In this document: one piece after another, positions 483 to 56,164 of the stretch | How the letters are laid out: every line of letters begins with the position of its first letter | Numbering within the stretch: the stretch's first letter is position 1 | Origin: Candidatus Bipolaricaulota bacterium | GTDB taxonomy: Bacteria; Patescibacteriota; Patescibacteriia; UBA11705; DATKZF01 | Assembly: GCA_035528115.1 (NCBI GenBank) | Contig: DATKZF010000001.1 | Coordinates: forward strand, 160,312-224,311 | Length of the DNA stretch: 64,000 nucleotides | Reading direction: 5' to 3' | The notes under the pieces: generated by a model | Seen by the model: only the letters and a program-made list of their open reading frames with translations | What the model was told of the DNA's origin: nothing | The model's database searches: none | Position numbers and translations under genes: made by a program

Positions 483-660
483 ATATATTGATTAAAGATT
501 AAATAAATTGGAAACCGGAAACTGGAAACTAGAAATTGGGGTTGGACAAGAAAATTGCCTCATTGTTACATTGTTCCATTGTTACGTGATTCCCGCCTCC
601 GCTCTTAAGCTACGGCGGGCAGGCATGCTCCATGTTTCATGATACGTGATACGTGTTTCA
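483..660. repeat. Family-B intergenic element (CAATGNAACAATG-type direct repeats plus a GC hairpin), located between atpG and atpD
   Basis: ggaaactggaaactagaaattggggttggacaagaaaattgcctcattgttacattgttccattgttac followed by a cccgcctccgc...gcggcggg hairpin and catgctccatgtttcatgatacgtgatacgtg. A second copy lies at 38021-38190. Confidence 0.6.
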
Positions 661-16833: not shown

Positions 16834-18423
16834 TCAAATTAAAGACTTGCCTTCCATGTCTTCGGTCGCTGACAAATCCAACAGCTTTAAAATCGTCGGC
16901 GCCACGTCGGCCAAGATACCGGCCGGCTTAATCAGACTCAAATCATTGCCGAGGCTTTCCGCGCCGGATAAATTTTTGCCTTCCCATTCTTTGCCGACAA
17001 TGATGAAAGGCACCGGATTTCGAGTATGTTCTTTCGTGACCTCACCGGTATTAACGTCTTTCATTTGCTCGGCGTTCCCATGATCCGCGGTGATGATCAC
17101 CACGCCGCCTTTCGATAAAACCAAATCGACTATCGTGCCCAAATGCTTATCCACTATTTCCGCGGCTCGTTTGGCCGCCTCGATATCTCCTGTATGCCCG
17201 AGCATATCCATATTTGAAAAATTGCACACGATAAAATCATAAACCTCTCTTAATATTTCCTTTTCAAGGCGTTTTGATATTTCCGGCGTCGCCATTTGAG
17301 GCGTCCGAGCGTAGGAATCCGCCATGGGCGAAGGCATCACCACTCTATCTTCATTAATGAAAGGCTCCTCCGCTCCCCCGTCGAAAAAGAACGTGACATG
17401 CGCGAATTTTTCCGTTTCCGCCACATGCAGTTGCTTGAAACCGTTTTCGGAAATGATTTTCGCCAAGGAATTTTTTATCACCTGCTTCGGATAAGCCACT
17501 CCGATCGTTGCCAAATCTTCCGAATATCTGACCAATGAAATAACGGCAATATTGTCCATTTTAGGTCCACGCTCGAATTTATCGAAATTATCCGAAACAA
17601 AAGCTCCTGCCAATTGCCCTGCGCGATCGCCTTTCAAATTGAAAAAAATGACAGCGTCATTTTGTTGTATCGTTGTTTTTGGCCGACCACCGCTGGTCAA
17701 AACCACCGGCACAAAGCCATCATCGAATATTCCTCTATTATAAGACGCCGCGATGGCTTCCGCCGCGTTATCGTAAAATTCATCGGCTTGTCCGTTGGCC
17801 ATGGCCACGAAAGCTCTTTGAGTGCGCTCCCAATGTCCGTCCCGATCCATGGCGAAAAATCTGCCAGAGATCGAAGCGATTTCCCCCACACCAAGTTCCG
17901 CGCATTTTTTTTCAACTTCGGCGATCAAACCGGCGCCGCTGTCTTTAATGGAATCAACTCCGTCGAGAATGGCATGAATAAAAACTCGATTGACTTTTTG
18001 CCGACGAGCCAATTCAAGCAAAGCGAACAGATGCCTCAATGAACCGTGAACATCGCCATCGCTGACAATGCCGATCAAGTGCAACCCGGATTTATTGGCC
18101 TTGACATGGTTAATCGCTTTAAGCAATTCCTGATTATTGAAAAAATCGCCGTTCTTGATGGATCTGTCTATTCTGGGCAAATTTTGATAAAACACTTTGC
18201 CGATGCCCATGGTCATGTGTCCGACTTCAGAATTGCCGGGTTCATTTTCCGCCAACCCAACCGCTTCTCCCGAAGCGAGCAACGTTAATGAAGGATAATT
18301 GGACACCAAACGATTAAAATTCGGCGTTTTAGCCAAAGTAATCGCGTTGACGTCCGAAGGCTGCGCAACTCCCCAGCCGTCAAGAATCATCAACAATACG
18401 GGTTTGGGAATATTTTTATACAT
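16834..18423 (-). CDS. gpmI: 2,3-bisphosphoglycerate-independent phosphoglycerate mutase
   Basis: MILDGWG...GNSEVGHM, the Ser-containing catalytic motif. Length 529 aa. Confidence 0.9.
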   Translation of the reverse strand: MYKNIPKPVLLMILDGWGVAQPSDVNAITLAKTPNFNRLVSNYPSLTLLASGEAVGLAENEPGNSEVGHMTMGIGKVFYQNLPRIDRSIKNGDFFNNQELLKAINHVKANKSGLHLIGIVSDGDVHGSLRHLFALLELARRQKVNRVFIHAILDGVDSIKDSGAGLIAEVEKKCAELGVGEIASISGRFFAMDRDGHWERTQRAFVAMANGQADEFYDNAAEAIAASYNRGIFDDGFVPVVLTSGGRPKTTIQQNDAVIFFNLKGDRAGQLAGAFVSDNFDKFERGPKMDNIAVISLVRYSEDLATIGVAYPKQVIKNSLAKIISENGFKQLHVAETEKFAHVTFFFDGGAEEPFINEDRVVMPSPMADSYARTPQMATPEISKRLEKEILREVYDFIVCNFSNMDMLGHTGDIEAAKRAAEIVDKHLGTIVDLVLSKGGVVIITADHGNAEQMKDVNTGEVTKEHTRNPVPFIIVGKEWEGKNLSGAESLGNDLSLIKPAGILADVAPTILKLLDLSATEDMEGKSLI

Positions 18424-18447: not shown

Positions 18448-19992
18448 TCAAGTCAATGATTTGGTTCTGATTTTATGATCGCCTTGATCCAAAAGTCGCA
18501 AAATCGTGGGTAATACGTTAGCCAAGCGGCCTCCGGATTTGAGTTTAAACTGTTTTCCGGAAGAGACGACGATAAAAGGGACTTTGTTGGTGGTGTGTTC
18601 GGTGTATTTTTCTCCGGTTTTCAAATCAATCATTTTCTCGGCATTGCCATGATCGGCGCTGATAACGCAACTGCCGCCCATGGCTTTTATTCTTTTATAA
18701 ATCGCGCCCACGCATTTGTCCACTGCACAAATGGCTTTTACCGCGGCGTCGAGATTGCCCGTGTGACCGACCATATCCGGATTGGCGAAATTCACCGCAA
18801 AATAATCGTATTGCCTTTTGGACAATAAATCAAGAATCTTGTCCGTGATTTTATAAGCGCTCATTTCCGGTTTCAAATCATAACTCCTGACATTGGGCGA
18901 CGGAATTTTGATTCTGTCTTCGCCGTTGACGGGCACGTCCGAACCGCCGTTCAAAAAGTAAGTGATGTGAGCGTATTTTTCCGTTTCCGCGACATAGACC
19001 TGTCTTAAATTTTCCAATACTTTCGGCATGGTATTTTTTAAAGTAATACTGGGGAAGGCGGTCAAAATATGATCCAGATCAGGACCGAAATCGGTCAGCG
19101 CCACAAATGACAAATTCTTCAACGCTTTTTTTCTGCGAAAAGACTTAGGGTTGCGTTGATTAAAATCTTTTTGCACAAAAGCTTTAGCCAATTGCCGCGC
19201 GCGGTCAGATCGCAAATTGAAAAATATCACGCCGTCATTGTCTTTTATCAAAACGGTCTTTTTTCGTCCGTTCAATATCAAAGACGGTTCCAAAAATTCA
19301 TCGGTCAAGCCTCTGTTATAAGAATGCAAAATGGCTTTGTCAAAATTGCCAAAATATTCTCCTTGACCCGAAGTCAGCATCTCATACGCCTTTTGAGTGC
19401 GCTCCCATTTTTTATTTCTGTCCATGGCAAAATATCTGCCGATAAGCGAAGCGATAAAAGCATTTTCAGGCAACTTTTTTTGCACTTGGCGCAAAATATC
19501 GGCCGCGGCGAATTGCGGCGAATCGCGGCCGTCCGTAAATAAATGCAAATATATTCTTTTGCATTGTTTGCAAACCAATTTGGTCAGAGCCAAAAGATGC
19601 TCCAAACTCATGTGCGGACTGCTATGCAAAGAAATCAAACCCATCAAATGCAGATCGGATTCATTGGAATTTACGTGCTTTATTAATTGAATAAAAGCCG
19701 GATTTTTATAAAACGTGCCGTTCTTTATGGCTTTGGAAATAATCACTGAGTCTTGCACGACAACTTTGCCCGCGCCGATATTCATGTGACCTGACTCGGA
19801 ATTACCCACTTGCAAATCCGGCAAGCCGACATGATGGCCGTGAGCGAACAAAGACGTGCTCGGATATTTCTTGATTAAAAAATCGTAATTCGGTTTTTTC
19901 GCCAATTCAATCGCATTGCCTCTGTTTTTCTGAGCCAATCCCCAACCGTCCAAAATCATGAAAATGAGCGGCAAATTTGATTTTGAAGACAT
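18448..19992 (-). CDS. Second, diverged paralog of cofactor-independent phosphoglycerate mutase
   Basis: MILDGWGLAQ...GNSESGHM. Roughly 40-45% identical by eye to the adjacent gpmI. Confidence 0.8.
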   Translation of the reverse strand: MSSKSNLPLIFMILDGWGLAQKNRGNAIELAKKPNYDFLIKKYPSTSLFAHGHHVGLPDLQVGNSESGHMNIGAGKVVVQDSVIISKAIKNGTFYKNPAFIQLIKHVNSNESDLHLMGLISLHSSPHMSLEHLLALTKLVCKQCKRIYLHLFTDGRDSPQFAAADILRQVQKKLPENAFIASLIGRYFAMDRNKKWERTQKAYEMLTSGQGEYFGNFDKAILHSYNRGLTDEFLEPSLILNGRKKTVLIKDNDGVIFFNLRSDRARQLAKAFVQKDFNQRNPKSFRRKKALKNLSFVALTDFGPDLDHILTAFPSITLKNTMPKVLENLRQVYVAETEKYAHITYFLNGGSDVPVNGEDRIKIPSPNVRSYDLKPEMSAYKITDKILDLLSKRQYDYFAVNFANPDMVGHTGNLDAAVKAICAVDKCVGAIYKRIKAMGGSCVISADHGNAEKMIDLKTGEKYTEHTTNKVPFIVVSSGKQFKLKSGGRLANVLPTILRLLDQGDHKIRTKSLT

Positions 19993-37879: not shown

Positions 37880-37954
37880 TGGTACCGCCACGGGGAATCG
37901 AACCCCGGTTCCCAGCGTGAGAAGCTGATGTCCTAACCACTAGACGATGGCGGC
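37880..37954 (-). tRNA. tRNA-Glu (anticodon CUC)
   Basis: Reverse complement GCCGCCATCGTCTAGTGGTTAGGACATCAGCTTCTCACGCTGGGAACCGGGGTTCGATTCCCCGTGGCGGTACCA folds as a cloverleaf with a GGTTCGATTCC T-arm and encoded CCA. The overlapping ORF 37770..37964 is spurious. Confidence 0.8.
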
Positions 37955-38020: not shown

Positions 38021-38190
38021 TCGGAAACTGGGAATTAGAAATTAGGGTTGGAGAAGAAAATTGCTTCATTGCTTCATTGTTTCATTGTTACATTGTTATG
38101 TGATATGTGTTCCATGATTCATGCTCCCCGCCTTCGCCCTATCGGGGCTTCGGCGGGCGTGTTACATGACACATCAAGACACAAGCCACT
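38021..38190. repeat. Family-B intergenic element, second copy (between the murF 3-prime end and tRNA-Glu)
   Basis: cggaaactgggaattagaaattagggttggagaagaaaattgcttcattgcttcattgtttcattgttacattgtt followed by a ccccgccttcgcc...cggcgggcg hairpin. About 80% identical to 510-600. Confidence 0.6.
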
Positions 38191-48169: not shown

Positions 48170-48342
48170 GTTACGAATTACATTCCTCTATTAAACTTTT
48201 AGGTTATCTGTTACGTATTACAATATTCTCAAGATTAAAGCTATAAGTAAATATAATTTGCAACAACAGATTGGAAGCCAAATGGAATCTTGTAATTCGT
48301 AACAACCGCTTGAAAGCTATCCAGCAGATTGTAATTCGTAAC
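48170..48342. repeat. MITE-like element family A (copy with a duplicated right end)
   Basis: GTTACGAATTACA at 48170-48182. TGTAATTCGTAAC at 48291-48303 and again at 48330-48342. Confidence 0.7.
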
Positions 48343-48422
48343 AATATTATTTCAAAACCGTCCCCGTCTCCATATACAGGTGGAAAAATTCAACTAAATT
48401 TAGCTAAAAAATAAAGCAATCC

Positions 48423-48451
48423 TTGACTTTTTATTGATTTTGTGATATAAT
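48423..48451 (+). promoter_or_regulatory. Sigma-70 promoter TTGACT-N17-TGaTATAAT (extended -10)
   Basis: TTGACT at 48423-48428 and TATAAT at 48446-48451, preceded by TG. AAGGAGG follows, and the ATG is at 48504. Confidence 0.6.
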
Positions 48452-48503
48452 GTTATTAGTTTTCTAAACAACGACAGGCCTGAATGGCCTAAGGAGGCAC
48501 GAG

Positions 48504-49268
48504 ATGAAGCAGTGGATGTGCGCCATGTTGGCGCTGGTTCTGGTCGGCTGTTGGCAGGCGCCGCAGCCGGAAAAAACGATGTACAACCCAAACCCCATGA
48601 GCCGGCTCGAAGCGGAATGCCCGCAAGGCACGTTCCTACTGGAGCTGAATTCCAGCACGTTCATGGCTCAATTCTGCTCGGACAGTTACTTTGTCCAGCA
48701 GGGTCCCTTCAAGGAGTGGGAGCATGGACGACTCTCACGAGAAGGGCAGGCGCTCGACGACAAAGCTGTCGGACAGCACACCTTCATGAACTACGACCGT
48801 GATGGCAACGTCGCCGAGATCCGCAAGAGCGACTACAACTCCAAGGGAGAGCAGGACGGCTTCGAGACCCGCTACTACGCGGACGGCCAGGTGGAGGTCA
48901 TTTGGCCGTTCACCCGAGGGATGGAAAACGGCATCACGGAGTGGTATTACCCCAGTGGAAGTTTGGGCGGATACTGCAACTACCTCGTCGGGCTCCAAGA
49001 TGGCGAGTGTGCCAGCTTTTTCCCCGACGGTCGTCTCTGGGAAGCTCTGGAGTACGACCACGGCAGATTGGTAGGAGCGTACCTGCCCGACTCGCCAGCC
49101 ACGTTCGTAGATGCTGGCGGGAATGGGTACGTCGAGTACCTCAACAATGAGGGGCTCGTGACCACCAGCGGCCGGTACGAAAACGGCCGTAAGGAGGGCT
49201 GCTGGCAGAACAGGCACAGGGAATCCGTCCTCTATATGGACGGGAAAATCCTCGGCTTTAACTGCTAG
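48504..49268 (+). CDS. Lipoprotein with MORN-like (YwqK-type) repeats
   Basis: MLALVLVGCW lipobox. Repeated YYxDGxxxxxxxxxxGxxxGxxxxYYPSG modules. GC about 62-67%, the highest in the window. Confidence 0.65.
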   Translation: MKQWMCAMLALVLVGCWQAPQPEKTMYNPNPMSRLEAECPQGTFLLELNSSTFMAQFCSDSYFVQQGPFKEWEHGRLSREGQALDDKAVGQHTFMNYDRDGNVAEIRKSDYNSKGEQDGFETRYYADGQVEVIWPFTRGMENGITEWYYPSGSLGGYCNYLVGLQDGECASFFPDGRLWEALEYDHGRLVGAYLPDSPATFVDAGGNGYVEYLNNEGLVTTSGRYENGRKEGCWQNRHRESVLYMDGKILGFNC

Positions 49269-49388: not shown

Positions 49389-50012
49389 TCACTTCAGCAC
49401 CGTCCCCGTCTCCAAATACCATAAATACAAATCCAGCTCTGCCAGATTCAAGCCGGCTCGCTCCCCCACTTTTCTCAAAACCTTTTCCATTTGAAGATAA
49501 TTTTTTTCGTTTAATGTTTTCGGCCGCTTGATCAACTTTTCTTTTTCCAAAATATCAATGATGTGAAAATCGATAATGGCTGAATCTTTATAGCCGATAT
49601 TTCGCAAAAAATGACTGGCCTCTTTCCAGCCTAAGCCTTTGATGTTTTCCACCAGCCAATCCCGCAATTCCGATTCACTTAATTTTTTCATCAACTTTTC
49701 CAATTCATTTTTGCGCTTTTGCGCCAAAGCAATGTAATTCGCCCGTTTGGTATGAAATCTAGCGCCGCATCGTTGTAAAACTTTTTGCAATTTGTTCTCG
49801 GACAAATTCAAAAATCCGTCGCCTACTTTGGCCTGAACTTCAAGGCATCTTTGCGCGGTGGAATTGGCGGTCAGCAGGCAAAAGCACAGCTCTTTGAAAA
49901 TTTCATCGCTTGATCCTTTGCCCGCTTTTTTAAATTCCAAAATCCTTCGGTCAATCACTTTTTTAACCGGGGATTTTTTTAATTCGGCTATTTGTTTCAA
50001 TGTTTTTATCAC
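49389..50012 (-). CDS. 8-oxoguanine DNA glycosylase/AP lyase (Ogg2-like HhH-GPD enzyme)
   Basis: 207 aa with an HhH-GPD-like core (LRNIGYKDSAIIDFHIIDIL). Assigned by family resemblance only. Confidence 0.55.
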   Translation of the reverse strand: MIKTLKQIAELKKSPVKKVIDRRILEFKKAGKGSSDEIFKELCFCLLTANSTAQRCLEVQAKVGDGFLNLSENKLQKVLQRCGARFHTKRANYIALAQKRKNELEKLMKKLSESELRDWLVENIKGLGWKEASHFLRNIGYKDSAIIDFHIIDILEKEKLIKRPKTLNEKNYLQMEKVLRKVGERAGLNLAELDLYLWYLETGTVLK

Positions 50013-50602
50013 ATTGTCCGTTCACTGTTTAATCGCTTAAAAGTTATTCTTTTCAATGTCTCTCTGCATTTTTTGTAATCCGGCGAAGCCACGGCCACCA
50101 AATTCCAAAAATTTCGCGAATGATTCATTTCTTTCAAATGACACAACTCATGCGCGACAATGTATTCGGCCAATTCGTCCGGCAGAAATAAAATTCGGTA
50201 ATTAAAACACAAATTGCCGTCGGACGAACAGCTCCCCCACCTTGACTTCGCGTTTTTAACGCTGACTTGTTTGTATTTGAAATTGTAAACGTCATTGACC
50301 GCCAAAAGTTTTTTATCAATTATTTTCTTCGCTCTGAATTTGCAGGCGTCAAAATTTGTCTGGCCGAATTCGCTCATTTCCGCTGGGATCGCGTTTCTTT
50401 CAATCAAACTGATTTTTTCCGCCACAAAAGACGAATTTTTTTCTACGAAATCAAAAATGGCTTTTTCGCTCAAACGAGTCGGAGCCACCACCGTAACCTC
50501 GGCCTCTTGCGATATTATAATTTTCAACCGTCTGGACAAACGGTTTCGTTTCAATTTGAAAAATATTTTTCGGTCGGCGATATTTAAATAAGGCATAATC
50601 AA
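50009..50602 (-). CDS. YgjP/DUF45-family metal-dependent hydrolase (WLM-like, HExxH)
   Basis: IVAHELCHLKEMNHSRNFW. Confidence 0.75.
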   Translation of the reverse strand: MIMPYLNIADRKIFFKLKRNRLSRRLKIIISQEAEVTVVAPTRLSEKAIFDFVEKNSSFVAEKISLIERNAIPAEMSEFGQTNFDACKFRAKKIIDKKLLAVNDVYNFKYKQVSVKNAKSRWGSCSSDGNLCFNYRILFLPDELAEYIVAHELCHLKEMNHSRNFWNLVAVASPDYKKCRETLKRITFKRLNSERTM

Positions 50603-50677
50603 TCATATTTTAACATCCTGACGCGTCCGCATCAAATTTAAAAGCCGCCAGAAGTGATCCGCGGCTCGAAAAATGGG

Positions 50678-50992
50678 TTACAAACAGGACAAACAGTCCT
50701 CCCCGAAAAACACGCAGTCCTCAACGCAACGTCTCAAGTCAACCAAATCTTCTTGGGACTGGAGACGAAGTTCCCTTTCGTCGGCCAAGCGTACTTCCAG
50801 ATCTTCGATGTCCCGAAGAAGCAATTGAGGGGAATCGCGCCTTGACGGCAAATGATCAGCCGCCTTCATCTGGTTCTCGCAGTGGCGGCACAGAATCCAC
50901 CCGGACAAAATCACGACCGCCAACAGCGCTTTATCGGACCGCCACCATGGTTTTCCCTTGACCACGATCTGACGATTTTGCGTCATCTGCAT
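50678..50992 (-). CDS. Small Cys-containing membrane protein. The listed ORF extends to 51052.
   Basis: One TM helix (ALLAVVILSGWIL). CRHC and C-terminal CVEDCVFFGEDCLSC motifs. GC-richer than its flanks. Confidence 0.45.
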   Translation of the reverse strand: MQMTQNRQIVVKGKPWWRSDKALLAVVILSGWILCRHCENQMKAADHLPSRRDSPQLLLRDIEDLEVRLADERELRLQSQEDLVDLRRCVEDCVFFGEDCLSCL

Positions 50993-51062
50993 TCCTCCAG
51001 AGGCATAATTGCCGACAATTGTATATATTACCAGATTTATTTTCTTTGTCAATACGAAAATT

Positions 51063-51515
51063 TTATTCTCGCGGCGTTTCCTTCCCGTAGAATTTCATCA
51101 GCGCTTCGCGCCATTCTTTCGAAGAAATAAAATCATCCAACAATTTATATTGAATTTCCAGTTCCCTTCGGCGATGCTTTTCCAGCGCTTCATGCAGATG
51201 GCGGCCGTTGACTTTGCTATTTTCAACATCATCATTTAAAAAATTCTCTTTTATCATGTCCATCAATTTTATTATATTCCCGTGATCTCGATGAGCCACG
51301 GTTGTCGGGCCCGTTTCATTTTCGAAACCGAAATGCTCGTCAAAGCGTGGAAATAAAAAGTTATCTTCAAGCGAAATATGCATTGAGATGTATTTTTGAA
51401 ATCGCTTAAATAAAACGGACGCATTGTCATTCTCAACATCTTCTTTCAAAAATTCCAACCACAATTTATCGAGAAATTCATGATCAGCGTCCATGAAATC
51501 GCCGATTAGTCCCAT
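51063..51515 (-). CDS. Hemerythrin-like (HHE cation-binding) protein
   Basis: His and Glu spacing (HEFLD...H..E...H..H...E) consistent with a hemerythrin-domain four-helix bundle. Confidence 0.5.
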   Translation of the reverse strand: MGLIGDFMDADHEFLDKLWLEFLKEDVENDNASVLFKRFQKYISMHISLEDNFLFPRFDEHFGFENETGPTTVAHRDHGNIIKLMDMIKENFLNDDVENSKVNGRHLHEALEKHRRRELEIQYKLLDDFISSKEWREALMKFYGKETPRE

Positions 51516-51595
51516 ACATTTCTTTTTTTATAACTTTATTCAACCATATCATTTTCAGGCGACAAAATCAATTTAAAAAGCCAAGCATTTGATGC

Positions 51596-53068
51596 TCAGC
51601 TCGCGGATGTTTCCTCGTCCTTTTTTCTTTTCAACCTGGCCGGAAGTTCTTTCAACCATCTGAAGAATTTGCGTTCCTCTTTCTGTCTGCGGAATTTGCG
51701 CAGACTCAGATGTCCGTAAATGGTGAGAAAGAAATTGCGCAAGCGCTGACTTTTCCTGCCGTATGGCGGCAAGAGGCTCAACAGCGCCCGCTTGATCACC
51801 CTGCCCCATGAATAGAACCGAGGCATGGCTTGGAGCATAACCGCTTTTTGCAGCTGCCAGGCGGGGATCTTAGCCGGTTCGAACACGACGTGATGAGAAT
51901 CGTAGTAACGCCACGATCTGGAGAGCAGTCTGCCTGCCTCTTCGAGCTTTTGGTACGTTTCAGCGCCGGGCAATGGCGTCAAGATCGAAAACATCACAGT
52001 GTCGATCCTCATGTTAATGGCGAATCTGACCGTGTCCTTGATCGTCTTCAGGTCGTCATGATCTCCGCCGAGAATAAACATGCCGTGCACGGCAATGCCA
52101 TGCTTGTGGAACACTTTGATCGAATTTCTGATTTCCTCGACGGTTTGGTCTTTTTTCCACTCTTTCAGAGTTTCCGGATTGACGGATTCAATGCCGACAT
52201 AGACCTGATTGCAGCCCGCGTCGCGCATCAAAGCCATCAGCTCAATATCCTTGGCGGAATTTACGGTCACCTGAGCGAACCAGTTGAAGCCGGCGCCCGT
52301 TCGTTTTCTCATCTCGATCAGCGACCGAAGCAGTTCCTTGGTGCGCTTCGGTTTGCCGACAAAATTGTCATCATAGAAAAATATCGAACGTCCGGGCAGC
52401 AGAGTGATAAGTCTTTCCACTTCGGCCACCACCGACTCGACGCTCGCGCAACGCAGCTTGCGGCCGAACATGGGAGTGACTGAGCAAAACTCGCACCGTT
52501 TGTGACAGCCGCGAGATGTCTGAATGGGAATGAAGCGCAGGCGATCCAAACCTTCGATGAGATCAAGCGCCGGGAAAGGGATGTGGTCGAATATATCTTG
52601 GTCTCGCTCGCGATTCGGATTATCGATGCGCTTGCCCGCGACTTTGTATGAAATACCGCTGATCTCGTCCAAGGCGCGCCGATTTTCCAGCCATTCGATG
52701 ATCTCGACGATGACAATTTCGCCTTCGCCGCGAACCACGATATCCACCCCGTTCTCCAACGCCTCGTGCGGCAGGAACGTCACATGCGGTCCACCCATGA
52801 TCACGGGTTTGTTAGGATTTTCGTCCTTGATTTTCCGAGCGATTTCGTACGCCCGCTCGGCCGTGCAAGTAATGGTGGAGATCCCCACCAAATCGCAAGC
52901 GTCCACGTACGACCAGTTGATCCTAGCCAGATCTTCACAGAAGACTTTGACCGTGTGTCCCATGTCTCGCAAAATGGCCGCCAAGATCGGCAGGCCGAGT
53001 CTCGGCAAAACGAACTTCTTGAACACGTTAAGTCCGGGCGAACGAGGCTCGATCAGCGCTATTTGCAT
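51596..53068 (-). CDS. B12-binding-domain radical SAM enzyme
   Basis: N-terminal cobalamin-binding Rossmann fold, then CHKRCEFCSV (CxxxCxxC). Length 490 aa. Confidence 0.85.
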   Translation of the reverse strand: MQIALIEPRSPGLNVFKKFVLPRLGLPILAAILRDMGHTVKVFCEDLARINWSYVDACDLVGISTITCTAERAYEIARKIKDENPNKPVIMGGPHVTFLPHEALENGVDIVVRGEGEIVIVEIIEWLENRRALDEISGISYKVAGKRIDNPNRERDQDIFDHIPFPALDLIEGLDRLRFIPIQTSRGCHKRCEFCSVTPMFGRKLRCASVESVVAEVERLITLLPGRSIFFYDDNFVGKPKRTKELLRSLIEMRKRTGAGFNWFAQVTVNSAKDIELMALMRDAGCNQVYVGIESVNPETLKEWKKDQTVEEIRNSIKVFHKHGIAVHGMFILGGDHDDLKTIKDTVRFAINMRIDTVMFSILTPLPGAETYQKLEEAGRLLSRSWRYYDSHHVVFEPAKIPAWQLQKAVMLQAMPRFYSWGRVIKRALLSLLPPYGRKSQRLRNFFLTIYGHLSLRKFRRQKEERKFFRWLKELPARLKRKKDEETSAS

Positions 53069-53177
53069 GATATCTTTCCCTTCCTTTGTTTTTTTTGAAA
53101 GAACCGTATAAATTTTAGCATATTTAAAACATCAGGGGAACAAAAAACCGCCCAGGTGGTCGGTAATCATATGTAAA

Positions 53178-53190
53178 TGTAATTCGTAAC
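53178..53190. repeat. Solo family-A terminal 13-mer TGTAATTCGTAAC
   Basis: Exact 13-mer in the spacer between the radical SAM gene and the DUF333 gene. Confidence 0.5.
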
Positions 53191-53732
53191 TATTTGCAGT
53201 CTATGGAACAACTCTTTGACGTTTCCGCGCAAGCGCAATCCAAACTCTCGCAAACGACTTCCTGGCACTCCCCGTCGCCGCAGGTATCTTTGCAAAAATT
53301 ATCTCCGGGCGCGCATTCGCCCCTGAAATATTCCCATTCCGAGCACTCTGAATTGTCATCAAACAAACAAAAACCGGCCTGACCGTTGGCCAAAGTTCTG
53401 ATTTCCAATTTGCCGCCATTGTCTTCGCAATAAACCGACGCCGGATTGGCCAGCCCCGCGTTGTTCCCCACTGCGTTCAAATTATTGTCATCTTCATTTA
53501 TTTCTTCGACAAAAAGTCTGCCGTCTTCCGTTCTACATTGACGAGGATAGCTTTCCATAATCGCGTAGCCCGCGTCAGCGCATTCGTCAAAATCGGATAT
53601 TTTGCCCTCGATTTTCATTTTTTCGAATAAATCAAGGTCGTTATCGGCGATGTAGGACCACAAGTAATAAACCAGAAATCCTCCGCCCGCGACAATGACG
53701 ACGCTGGCGATGATCAGAATTATTTTTTTCAT
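53190..53732 (-). CDS. DUF333-like secreted Cys-rich protein
   Basis: Signal/anchor helix. NPASVYCEDNGGKLE...GFCLFDDNSECSEWEYFRGEC core, plus a Cys-rich tail. Confidence 0.55.
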   Translation of the reverse strand: MKKIILIIASVVIVAGGGFLVYYLWSYIADNDLDLFEKMKIEGKISDFDECADAGYAIMESYPRQCRTEDGRLFVEEINEDDNNLNAVGNNAGLANPASVYCEDNGGKLEIRTLANGQAGFCLFDDNSECSEWEYFRGECAPGDNFCKDTCGDGECQEVVCESLDCACAETSKSCSIDCK

Positions 53733-56013: not shown

Positions 56014-56116
56014 ATTACGAATGGTTACGAATTACAATCATCCCGTTGGCTTTTAGGTTATTTGTTACTAATTACAATCTTCTTAGGCATAAAGCTATAA
56101 GTTAATGTACTTCATA
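56014..56116. repeat. MITE-like element family A (partly degenerate), followed by a fragment of family-B repeat
   Basis: GTTACGAATTACA at 56014-56026 and the internal ttaggttatttgttac segment. The right end is degenerate. The 56120-56160 stretch catgctccatgatacatgatacgtgacacatg matches the 3-prime end of the 483-660 element. Confidence 0.55.
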
Positions 56117-56164
56117 ACAATGCTTCATGCTCCATGATACATGATACGTGACACATGAATTATA

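What the first reader, a model, noticed from the sequence alone, without database searches (positions are those of the whole stretch)
50640..53070. B12-radical-SAM enzyme, hemerythrin-like protein and small Cys-rich membrane peptide as a compact, slightly GC-richer module
The three co-oriented genes (51596-53068, 51063-51515, 50678-50992) are not typical of minimal-genome fermenters. A cobalamin-dependent radical SAM enzyme (CHKRCEFC) with a hemerythrin-type O2/iron-sensing partner and a 100-124-aa protein ending CVEDCVFFGEDCLSC suggests a maturase plus substrate peptide, or redox-sensing module, possibly RiPP-like. GC is a few percent higher than the flanking genes, and the module is bracketed by family-A repeat remnants at 53178-53190. 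That is consistent with lateral acquisition.
Basis: inference. Interest (0 to 1): 0.55.

Follow-up and report, generated by a model that had tools for sequence, protein, structure and literature searches.

The report
Conserved B12 radical-SAM gene, two orphans
The three genes are real, but they are not a peptide-maturation cassette: the cobalamin radical-SAM gene is an inherited, syntenic member of a large uncharacterised enzyme family, and the hemerythrin-like gene and small cysteine-rich gene beside it are genome-specific orphans with their own transcription signals.

Summary
51596-53068(-) is a class-B (B12-binding) radical SAM enzyme with CHKRCEFC. 51063-51515(-) is a hemerythrin/HHE di-iron protein. 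50678-50992(-) is a 102-104 aa protein with one TM helix and six Cys.

The "module" does not hold up.
- The rSAM has more than 2,900 homologues. Its closest relatives (69, 67 and 55% identity) sit in the same DUF333...rSAM...Ogg...TGT neighbourhood in Patescibacteria-like contigs, so it is inherited rather than inserted.
- None of those relatives, and none of about 87 other loci, has the hemerythrin or the small ORF beside the rSAM. Both are orphans, the small ORF even against 1.84 billion representatives.
- The small ORF has its own consensus promoter, Shine-Dalgarno site and terminator-like hairpin. The rSAM also ends in a hairpin.
- In relatives the slot between rSAM and Ogg holds rubrerythrin, SOD and FMN reductase, so the hemerythrin most likely belongs to an oxygen-defence slot.
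- GC is uneven: rSAM 53% (the richest 1.5 kb in the window), small ORF 53%, hemerythrin 39%.
- The "bracketing repeat" is one 13-mer, on one side only.

There is no SPASM domain and no RiPP family match. The rSAM substrate remains unknown. This is an ordinary locus of low to moderate interest.

The parts
51596..53068 (-). Class-B (cobalamin-binding) radical SAM enzyme, 490 aa (GenBank HUT21979.1). It has an N-terminal B12-binding Rossmann domain, an rSAM core with C188-x3-C192-x2-C195, and a C-terminal pair of long basic helices.
   Evidence: Pfam PF02310 and PF04055. No NCBIfam equivalog reached; the best is HpnJ at 168 bits against a cut-off of 577.6. AlphaFold model has pLDDT 92. Foldseek top hits are MgmA 9ccb, TsrM, AprD4, OxsB, CysS and TokK. 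More than 2,947 homologues were found.
51063..51515 (-). Hemerythrin/HHE-type di-iron protein, 150 aa (HUT21978.1). It is an orphan at the sequence level.
   Evidence: Pfam PF01814 at 34.5 bits. The only database hit is itself. The best solved relative is the di-iron domain of YtfE/RIC at E about 1e-3, with H46/E50/H78 aligned to the YtfE H-x3-E and His positions. The single-sequence model is all-helical but of low confidence, pLDDT 48.
50678..50992 (-). Orphan small protein (104 aa from the first ATG, 102 aa as annotated, HUT21977.1). It has a basic N-terminus, one TM helix at residues 21-35, CRHC at the helix end, an acidic helical stretch, and a C-terminal C-x3-C-x6-C-x2-C.
   Evidence: ORF listing. 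Hydropathy, charge and Cys map. No homologue in 5.8 billion clusters or in 1.84 billion representatives scored exhaustively. No Pfam or PDB match. GC1/GC2/GC3 of 0.58/0.36/0.64 is a coding-like pattern.
51025..51052 (-). Promoter-like site for the small ORF: TTGACA, 16 nt, TAATAT with a TG extension. It is followed by a GGAGGA Shine-Dalgarno site at about 51001-51006.
   Evidence: Promoter scan, 10 of 12 matches with TG. Sequence read directly.
50634..50668 (-). Terminator-like hairpin and U-run after the small ORF (GAGCCGCGG...CUGGCGGCUUUUAAAUUU).
   Evidence: Fold of 50625-50685(-) gives -19 kcal/mol, z = -2.94, with 1 of 200 shuffles as stable.
51570..51602 (-). Hairpin and U-run overlapping the rSAM stop codon. 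It is a weak terminator-like site between the rSAM and the hemerythrin gene.
   Evidence: Terminator scan. Fold gives -12.8 kcal/mol, z = -1.74.
53178..53190 (-). Solitary copy of the genome-specific 13-mer GTTACGAATTACA, about 110 nt upstream of the rSAM start.
   Evidence: 17 copies in the window against 0.09 expected. No second copy flanks the module. The motif is absent from all 90 related loci.
49389..50602 (-). YgjP-like metallopeptidase-fold gene (50009-50602) overlapping the start of Ogg, the 8-oxoguanine glycosylase (49389-50012). Ogg is the conserved downstream anchor of the syntenic block. YgjP is absent from the related loci.
   Evidence: Pfam PF01863 and PF22175. NCBIfam N-glycosylase/DNA lyase at 240 bits. 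Ogg is 73-81% identical in L001, L002 and L005. YgjP has no hit in the related loci.
53190..53732 (-). DUF333 protein, the conserved upstream anchor of the syntenic block.
   Evidence: Pfam PF03891. Homologues lie upstream of the rSAM in L004 and L005.

Best explanation
The interval holds three separately transcribed genes, not one functional cassette.

1. The rSAM is the lineage's orthologue of a very large, strongly conserved, stand-alone family of class-B (cobalamin plus [4Fe-4S]) radical SAM enzymes. It was inherited in place between the DUF333 cluster and Ogg/TGT in a Patescibacteria-like clade. By analogy with the class, it cleaves SAM reductively at the CxxxCxxC cluster and uses cobalamin for a methyl transfer or rearrangement. 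The substrate is probably a common cellular molecule rather than a neighbouring peptide, and it remains unknown. This step is inferred.

2. The hemerythrin-like protein occupies a variable slot between the rSAM and Ogg. In relatives that slot carries rubrerythrin, Fe/Mn-SOD and FMN reductase. It is most likely a di-iron protein that scavenges oxygen or reactive oxygen species, or protects Fe-S clusters, in an anaerobe. It could incidentally protect oxygen-labile enzymes such as the rSAM. This step is also inferred.

3. The small Cys-rich ORF is a monocistronic, genome-specific orphan. It is probably a membrane-anchored protein with its C-terminus outside the cell, and its function is unknown.

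The high GC and atypical codon usage of the rSAM are best read as an in-place replacement by an allele from a GC-richer member of the same clade, or as gene-specific composition. They do not indicate insertion of a foreign island.
For: Domain and fold identity of the rSAM:
- Pfam, NCBIfam, AlphaFold and Foldseek results agree on a class-B rSAM.

Synteny and vertical descent:
- The closest homologues P0002, P0003 and P0004 lie in DUF333...rSAM...(variable)...SOD-Ogg...TGT loci.
- The identity ranking for the rSAM (69 > 67 > 55%) mirrors that for Ogg (81 > 75 > 73%).
- The window's rSAM is monophyletic with these three in an NJ tree of 83 sequences.
- A cluster mate of P0002 is named Patescibacteria group bacterium.

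Behaviour of the family:
- 2,947 or more hits were found.
- 439 relatives occur across GTDB species, in Actinomycetota, Aminicenantes, Zixibacteria, Deltaproteobacteria, Clostridia and others, at 42-48% identity.
- Mean column identity is 53% with 65 invariant positions.
- No conserved biosynthetic neighbour was found. The only recurrent neighbour is a tandem-MerR gene, in 27 of 88 loci, and it is absent here.

Oxygen-defence content of the slot in relatives:
- Rubrerythrin, SOD and FMN reductase, from the Pfam labels.

Hemerythrin precedent:
- The window protein resembles the YtfE/RIC di-iron domain.
- Hemerythrins protect Fe-S enzymes from oxygen damage in Campylobacter jejuni (PMC4257069).

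Composition:
Against: - The rSAM substrate is not identified, so 'common cellular substrate' rests only on conservation and the lack of conserved neighbours.
- The hemerythrin assignment rests on a modest Pfam score (34.5 bits), a marginal PDB match (E about 1e-3) and a poor structural model (pLDDT 48).
- The window itself has no SOD or rubrerythrin. The 'oxygen-defence slot' is therefore inferred from only three related lineages.
- The rSAM and the small ORF share a GC-rich composition that the hemerythrin gene lacks. This could mean a shared history that the present data cannot resolve.
- In each clade member some small membrane ORF, often with Cys, follows the rSAM. These ORFs are not homologous to one another, and such ORFs are common in these genomes.
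- The promoter and terminator calls are consensus matches, not measurements.
Confidence: 0.62

Rival explanations
1. RiPP-like or protein-modification cassette. The B12-rSAM methylates or otherwise modifies the Cys-rich C-terminus of the small ORF. The hemerythrin acts as a redox partner and the YgjP-like metallopeptidase acts as the processing protease.
For: - The genes are adjacent and co-oriented.
- The small ORF has a Cys-rich C-terminal tail.
- Class-B rSAMs include RiPP methyltransferases. ApyD scores 127 bits and rSAM_ocin_1 scores 72 bits as distant matches.
- An HExxH-fold gene lies downstream.
- The rSAM and the small ORF share GC-rich composition.
Against: - The small ORF has no homologue anywhere.
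- It is absent next to syntenic orthologues at 55-69% identity and from 87 other loci.
- It has its own promoter, Shine-Dalgarno site and terminator, and the hemerythrin gene lies in between.
- It carries a TM helix, which is unusual for a precursor peptide.
- There is no SPASM or auxiliary-cluster Cys motif.
- All RiPP rSAM models are far below their cut-offs.
- The rSAM family is conserved at about 45-50% identity across phyla as a stand-alone gene.
- YgjP overlaps Ogg and has its own promoter-like site.
Confidence: 0.05
2. The rSAM is a lipid-modifying enzyme, for example a methylase or coupling enzyme for membrane-spanning or branched lipids. Its basic, aromatic-rich amphipathic C-terminal helices hold it at the membrane.
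For: - The best HMM neighbours are lipid enzymes: HpnJ at 168 bits, the ladderane lipid rSAM at 119 bits and HpnR at 110 bits.
- The gene stands alone.
- It is distributed among anaerobic sediment phyla, which overlaps the distribution reported for mss homologues (PMC13159169).
- The C-terminal 71 aa contain 21 Lys/Arg in two long helices.
Against: - All these scores are far below the family cut-offs.
- Mss is described as sharing the catalytic architecture of Tes (PMC13274423), and the Tes model scores only 23.9 bits against a cut-off of 450.
- No lipid genes are nearby.
- Patescibacteria-like genomes generally lack lipid synthesis (own knowledge).
- The basic tail would fit RNA binding equally well.
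- No Mss sequence was available to compare.
Confidence: 0.15
3. The three genes form a recently acquired genomic island brought in by the 'family-A' repeat element.
For: - The interval is GC-richer than 97.6% of same-length windows.
- The rSAM has atypical codon usage, B = 0.39 against 0.15-0.23 for long genes.
- One 13-mer repeat copy lies at 53178-53190.
- The hemerythrin, small ORF and YgjP genes are absent from the related loci.
Against: - The rSAM is syntenic and monophyletic with its lineage relatives.
- The hemerythrin and YgjP genes have native composition.
- The repeat copy is single, 13 nt long and on one side only.
- No integrase, transposase, tRNA or direct repeats flank the interval.
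Confidence: 0.08

Closest known systems
Class I B12-dependent radical SAM enzymes with solved structures: MgmA/QCMT (9CCB), TsrM, OxsB, CysS and TokK
   Same: They share an N-terminal cobalamin-binding Rossmann domain followed by a TIM-like rSAM core with CxxxCxxC. The profile against PDB gives E = 5e-30 to 9CCB. Foldseek gives probability 1.0 and TM about 0.66-0.70. The architecture matches 'class I' in the review PMC12931638.
   Different: Identity is only about 16-21%. The C-terminal region, two long basic helices, is different. None of their substrates or pathway genes (MCR, thiostrepton, oxetanocin, carbapenem) is present. The reaction type, methylation or rearrangement, is unknown.
HpnJ (TIGR03471) and BchE (TIGR02026)
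   Same: They are the best-scoring curated families, matching over nearly the full length: HpnJ E = 3e-49 over residues 58-419 and BchE E = 3e-42. JGI auto-annotations of some family members say 'BchE'.
   Different: The scores are 168 and 145 bits against equivalog cut-offs of 577.6 and 481. No hopanoid or bacteriochlorophyll genes are nearby. The protein is not a member of either family.
RiPP class-B rSAM methyltransferases (TIGR03975 rSAM_ocin_1, ApyD, PoyB/C-type)
   Same: They belong to the same superfamily and have the same domain order. A small Cys-rich ORF lies nearby.
   Different: The scores are 72 bits against a cut-off of 281.85, and 127 bits against 750. There is no conserved precursor, no co-transcription signal, and no accompanying transporter, protease or leader-binding element.
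Single-domain bacterial hemerythrins and the di-iron domain of YtfE/RIC
   Same: The HHE domain is above the Pfam threshold. The H-x3-E ... LFP ... GP ... H motif aligns to YtfE. The protein sits in an anaerobe next to Fe-S and oxidative-damage genes. The precedent for Fe-S protection is PMC4257069.
   Different: It has no close homologue. It lacks the N-terminal ScdA_N domain of RIC proteins. Metal and oxygen binding are untested.

Membership tests
Class-B (cobalamin-dependent) radical SAM | N-terminal B12-binding Rossmann domain (PF02310) | tested here: met
   70.8 bits against a cut-off of 32.1, residues 19-123. The domain is present in the pLDDT-92 model and superposes on B12-rSAM structures.
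Class-B (cobalamin-dependent) radical SAM | Radical SAM core with a CxxxCxxC [4Fe-4S] motif | tested here: met
   PF04055 at 81.6 bits. C188, C192 and C195 are invariant in 49 family members.
Class-B (cobalamin-dependent) radical SAM | Binds cobalamin and cleaves SAM | not testable with these tools
   This needs purified protein with UV-vis or EPR spectroscopy and an activity assay.
HpnJ / BchE equivalogs | Score at or above the NCBIfam equivalog cut-off | tested here: not met
   168 bits against 577.6 for HpnJ, and 145 bits against 481.35 for BchE.
RiPP maturase rSAM (rSAM_ocin_1, ApyD, SPASM-type) | Family model cut-off reached, or a SPASM/twitch auxiliary-cluster domain present | tested here: not met
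   72.2 bits against 281.85, and 127.3 bits against 750. There is no C-terminal Cys cluster; the only Cys are at positions 44, 58, 68, 188, 192, 195, 207 and 286.
RiPP maturase rSAM (rSAM_ocin_1, ApyD, SPASM-type) | A precursor peptide gene conserved next to the enzyme in relatives | tested here: not met
   No homologue of the small ORF occurs in L001-L005 or in about 87 other loci, or in any database searched.
   30.5 bits against 251.
Hemerythrin / HHE cation-binding domain | Pfam PF01814 at or above the gathering score | tested here: met
   34.5 bits against 25.3, residues 6-123.
Hemerythrin / HHE cation-binding domain | His/Glu di-iron ligands on a four-helix bundle | tested here: inconclusive
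   H12, H46-x3-E50, H78 and H114-x3-E118 are present. H46, E50 and H78 align to the YtfE H-x3-E and His positions; their identity as YtfE's iron ligands is from my own knowledge of the YtfE structure. The model shows 4-5 long helices but has pLDDT of only 48.
RIC/YtfE Fe-S repair proteins | ScdA_N domain plus a C-terminal di-iron domain, with significant full-length similarity | tested here: not met
   Only residues 38-91 match, at E about 1e-3. There is no ScdA_N hit in Pfam.
Mss / Tes membrane-spanning lipid synthases | Tes-like rSAM architecture, or significant similarity to Mss | tested here: inconclusive
   The Tes model scores 23.9 bits against a cut-off of 450. No Mss sequence was available in the tools for direct comparison.

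The most novel reading that the evidence does not exclude
The orphan membrane-anchored Cys-rich protein is a lineage-specific substrate or redox partner of the B12-rSAM. Alternatively, a non-homologous small Cys-bearing membrane ORF plays this role after the rSAM in each clade member. Either case would make this a previously unseen cobalamin-rSAM protein-modification system in a Patescibacteria-like bacterium. A separate and more likely reading is that the rSAM family itself performs an undescribed reaction. It has thousands of members and about 45-50% identity across ten or more phyla. It is stand-alone, or translationally coupled to a tandem-MerR protein in Aminicenantes- and Clostridia-type loci.
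Probability: 0.06. Interest if true: 0.6.

Novelty: new member of a known kind. Interest (0 to 1): 0.25.

Why it matters
If the conclusion is right, the locus should not be pursued as a RiPP or natural-product cluster.

Two things remain of modest value.
- It shows that a cobalamin-dependent rSAM is a conserved, syntenic gene in a small Patescibacteria-like clade. That implies these reduced genomes scavenge and use B12.
- It points to a large, highly conserved class-B rSAM family that matches no curated functional model and has no assigned substrate. The family is a reasonable target for enzymology.

The variable oxygen-defence slot next to Ogg illustrates how related anaerobes swap different iron-based antioxidant genes at one position.

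Tried and rejected
- Word-indexed search of the small ORF and the hemerythrin returned only self hits.
- The exhaustive phmmer search of the small ORF gave one further hit, 19 residues of the TM helix matched within a repetitive 710-aa protein, which I discounted.
- PADLOC and PHROGs showed no defence or phage signal.
- Rfam showed no cobalamin or other riboswitch upstream of the rSAM.
- The single-sequence AlphaFold model of the hemerythrin was too poor (pLDDT 48) to use for a fold search.
- The afdb50 Foldseek library was unavailable.
- Permissive Pfam and PDB searches of the small ORF found nothing significant. The best was a COMP coiled coil at E = 0.39.
- tblastn of the relatives' SOD, rubrerythrin, ABC and Na/H genes found no remnants in the window, so the small ORF is not a decayed copy of those genes.
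- A scan of 87 loci for conserved small Cys-rich ORFs beside the rSAM found only unrelated, mostly spurious ORFs.
- The Mss lipid-synthase idea could not be tested by sequence, and the Tes score does not favour it.
- Literature searches for a hemerythrin plus B12-rSAM pairing, a MerR plus B12-rSAM pairing, or CPR oxidative-stress loci found nothing relevant.
- The GC-rich plus-strand ORFs at 11.7-16 kb are not paralogues of one another and do not explain the GC pattern.
Full report
**Observation**

- ORF 51596-53068 encodes 490 aa with CHKRCEFC at residues 188-195. It matches Pfam B12-binding (70.8 bits) and Radical_SAM (81.6 bits).
- ORF 51063-51515 encodes 150 aa and matches the Hemerythrin HHE domain at 34.5 bits, against a cut-off of 25.3.
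- ORF 50678-50992 encodes 104 aa. GenBank annotates 102 aa from the second ATG. It has a +4 N-terminus, one hydrophobic helix at residues 21-35, and CRHC at the helix end. An acidic, helix-prone stretch follows, and the protein ends C89-x3-C93-x6-C100-x2-C103.

The proteins are already in GenBank as HUT21979.1, HUT21978.1 and HUT21977.1. They come from a 266,694-nt contig of a MAG labelled Candidatus Bipolaricaulota. The closest rSAM relative is labelled Patescibacteria group bacterium. The window's gene content looks like a reduced fermenter: ATP synthase, two iPGM genes, a NiFe hydrogenase, mraZ/mraW, a PBP and TGT.

**Composition**

- The interval is 49.0% GC against 43.2% for the window, and 2.4% of equal-length windows reach that value. 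The signal is uneven.
- The rSAM is 53.0% GC with GC3 0.672. The mean over 70 ORFs is 0.510 +/- 0.067, and the rSAM is the single most GC-rich 1.5 kb of the window.
- Its codon-usage distance from 15 long genes is 0.39, against 0.15-0.23 among those genes.
- The small ORF is 52.7% GC. The hemerythrin gene between them is 39.1% GC with GC3 0.424, which is native or lower.
- In the three related lineages the rSAM is only about 2-3 points above its contig's overall GC.

**Repeats**

- GTTACGAATTACA is a real, genome-specific repeat. It has 17 copies against 0.09 expected and is absent from all 90 related loci.
- Only one solitary copy, at 53178-53190, lies near the module. None lies on the other side. 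"Bracketed" is therefore not correct.

**Relatives and synteny**

- The rSAM has at least 2,947 homologues. The three closest are P0002 (69%), P0003 (67%) and P0004 (55%).
- All three lie in the same neighbourhood as in the window: small secreted proteins and DUF333 upstream, Ogg downstream and then TGT.
- The identity ranking for the rSAM parallels that for Ogg (81, 75 and 73%).
- In an NJ tree of 83 family members, the window's protein is monophyletic with these three, nested in the wider family.
- The rSAM is therefore an inherited gene of this lineage. It is not an insertion specific to this genome.

**The variable slot**

- In relatives the segment between the rSAM and Ogg holds small unrelated membrane ORFs, an ABC transporter, rubrerythrin, an FMN reductase, an SRPBCC protein and Fe/Mn-SOD.
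- In the window it holds the hemerythrin gene, the small ORF and a YgjP-like gene whose end overlaps the Ogg start.
- None of these three has a counterpart in the related loci.
- No remnant of the relatives' genes is present in the window.

**Orphans**

- The hemerythrin-like protein and the small ORF each found only themselves among 5.8 billion clusters.
- An exhaustive phmmer scan of 1.84 billion representatives found nothing for the small ORF beyond a TM-helix match of 19 residues, which I discounted.
- Pfam, NCBIfam, PADLOC, PHROGs and PDB gave nothing for the small ORF.

**Transcription signals**

- The small ORF has a near-consensus promoter (TTGACA, 16 nt, TG-extended TAATAT at 51052-51025), a GGAGGA Shine-Dalgarno site, and a stable hairpin with a U-run after its stop codon (z = -2.9).
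- The rSAM ends in a hairpin with a U-run (-12.8 kcal/mol).
- YgjP-Ogg has its own TG-extended promoter-like site.
- These are consensus matches only. They argue for separate transcription units.
- No riboswitch or other Rfam element is present.

**What the rSAM is**

- A high-confidence model (pLDDT 92) superposes on MgmA/QCMT, TsrM, AprD4, OxsB, CysS and TokK. The family profile hits 9CCB at E = 5e-30. This is the class I architecture described in PMC12931638.
- No curated functional model is reached: HpnJ 168 bits against 577.6, BchE 145 against 481, PhpK 135 against 600, ApyD 127 against 750, rSAM_ocin_1 72 against 282, and MiaB/RimO 30.5 against 251.
- There is no SPASM-type Cys cluster.
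- The family is unusually conserved. Mean column identity is 53%, with 65 invariant positions across 49 members from many phyla.
- 439 relatives occur among GTDB species representatives, in Actinomycetota, Aminicenantes, Zixibacteria, Deltaproteobacteria, Clostridia, Thermotogae and others.
- Clustering of neighbours over 88 loci found no conserved biosynthetic partner. The only recurrent neighbour is a roughly 240-aa tandem-MerR protein translationally coupled upstream, in 27 loci. It is absent from the window's clade.
- No conserved small Cys-rich ORF accompanies the enzyme.
- This pattern fits an enzyme acting on a common cellular substrate, not a tailoring enzyme for an adjacent peptide.
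- The C-terminal 71 residues form two long helices with 21 Lys/Arg. That is compatible with membrane-surface or nucleic-acid binding, but it does not decide the substrate.
- I considered the bacterial membrane-spanning lipid synthase Mss (PMC13159169). It is described as Tes-like (PMC13274423), and the Tes model scores only 23.9 bits. No Mss sequence was available to test directly.

**What the hemerythrin is likely doing**

- Its best solved relative is the di-iron domain of the Fe-S repair protein YtfE (E about 1e-3). H46-x3-E50 and H78 align to the YtfE H-x3-E and His positions; that these are YtfE's iron ligands is from my own knowledge of the structure.
- H12 and H114-x3-E118 complete a plausible ligand set, read directly from the sequence.
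- The single-sequence model is helical but unreliable.
- In relatives the slot carries rubrerythrin, SOD and FMN reductase next to the 8-oxoguanine glycosylase. Hemerythrins protect Fe-S enzymes from oxygen in Campylobacter (PMC4257069).
- The most economical reading is therefore an oxygen, ROS or Fe-S protection role. This is inference.

**Verdict**

- The interpretation as a maturase-plus-substrate, RiPP-like, laterally acquired module is not supported.
- The rSAM's compositional anomaly is real and only partly explained. Because orthology and synteny are intact, I favour in-place replacement by an allele from a GC-richer clade member. This is untested.
- Overall this is a new member of a known enzyme class with two orphan neighbours, of low to moderate interest.

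Noticed in passing
window 45097-45196, 48170-48349, 56019-56157, 58147-58286, 59842-59970: These are composite intergenic repeat elements of about 100-170 nt. They are built from direct and inverted copies of GTTACGAATTACA spaced about 40 nt apart. The motif has 17 copies in the window against 0.09 expected and is absent from the related loci. Two 103-nt arms (56019-56121 and 58184-58286) are 95% complementary. They bracket a 121-aa weakly FtsL-like ORF (PF19579, 17.0 bits, below the 24.6 cut-off) plus mraW and mraZ. The elements could be MITE- or REP-like repeats or operator arrays.
   Followed up: partly
window 47008-49268 (+): A run of plus-strand genes is markedly GC-rich (51-59% GC, GC3 up to 0.77) with strongly atypical codon usage (B = 0.50-0.63). 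It includes a MORN-repeat protein and a putative lipoprotein and lies between TGT and Ogg. The 157-aa lipoprotein has a 28%-identical homologue at the syntenic position in L001. GC-rich genes in this genome are therefore not all recent insertions.
   Followed up: partly
L033, L034, L041, L044, L052, L054, L058, L063, L066, L071-L073, L076-L080, L084, L085, L088-L090 and others (immediately upstream of the rSAM): In 27 of 88 loci, from MAGs labelled Aminicenantes, Eubacteriales/Clostridia, Calditrichaeota, Spirochaetales and Cytophagia, a roughly 240-aa protein with two MerR HTH domains is translationally coupled to the rSAM orthologue, with overlaps of 4-8 nt. This is an uncharacterised two-gene unit.
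   Followed up: partly
window 41628-43277 (+): A 549-aa ORF is built largely of 12 or more tandem 87-nt (29-aa) repeats at 60-80% identity. The only Pfam match is a weak tautomerase hit.
   Followed up: no
window 16834-18423 and 18448-19992 (-): Two adjacent paralogous genes encode cofactor-independent phosphoglycerate mutase (iPGM). They share DNA repeats at 72-76% identity.
   Followed up: no
L001 3929-4057 and 4078-4302; L005 7581-7856; L002 3661-4017 and 4092-4274: Each related clade member has a different, non-homologous small membrane or secreted ORF directly downstream of the rSAM. Several carry Cys pairs, for example CCGCASC and CAAC in L001. This may simply reflect the abundance of such ORFs in these genomes.
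   Followed up: partly
window 554-583 and 38060-38097: Short 8-nt-period repeats (ATTGCTTC/ATTGTTAC...) occur in two distant intergenic regions. One lies just upstream of tRNA-Glu at 37880-37954.
   Followed up: no
L002 4426-4620 (-) and 4917-5153 (-): Two small ORFs each have a CxxC pair near the N-terminus and a C..GSG motif near the C-terminus. They may be paralogues and look zinc-ribbon-like. They lie in the variable slot of the related locus, on the opposite strand.
   Followed up: no
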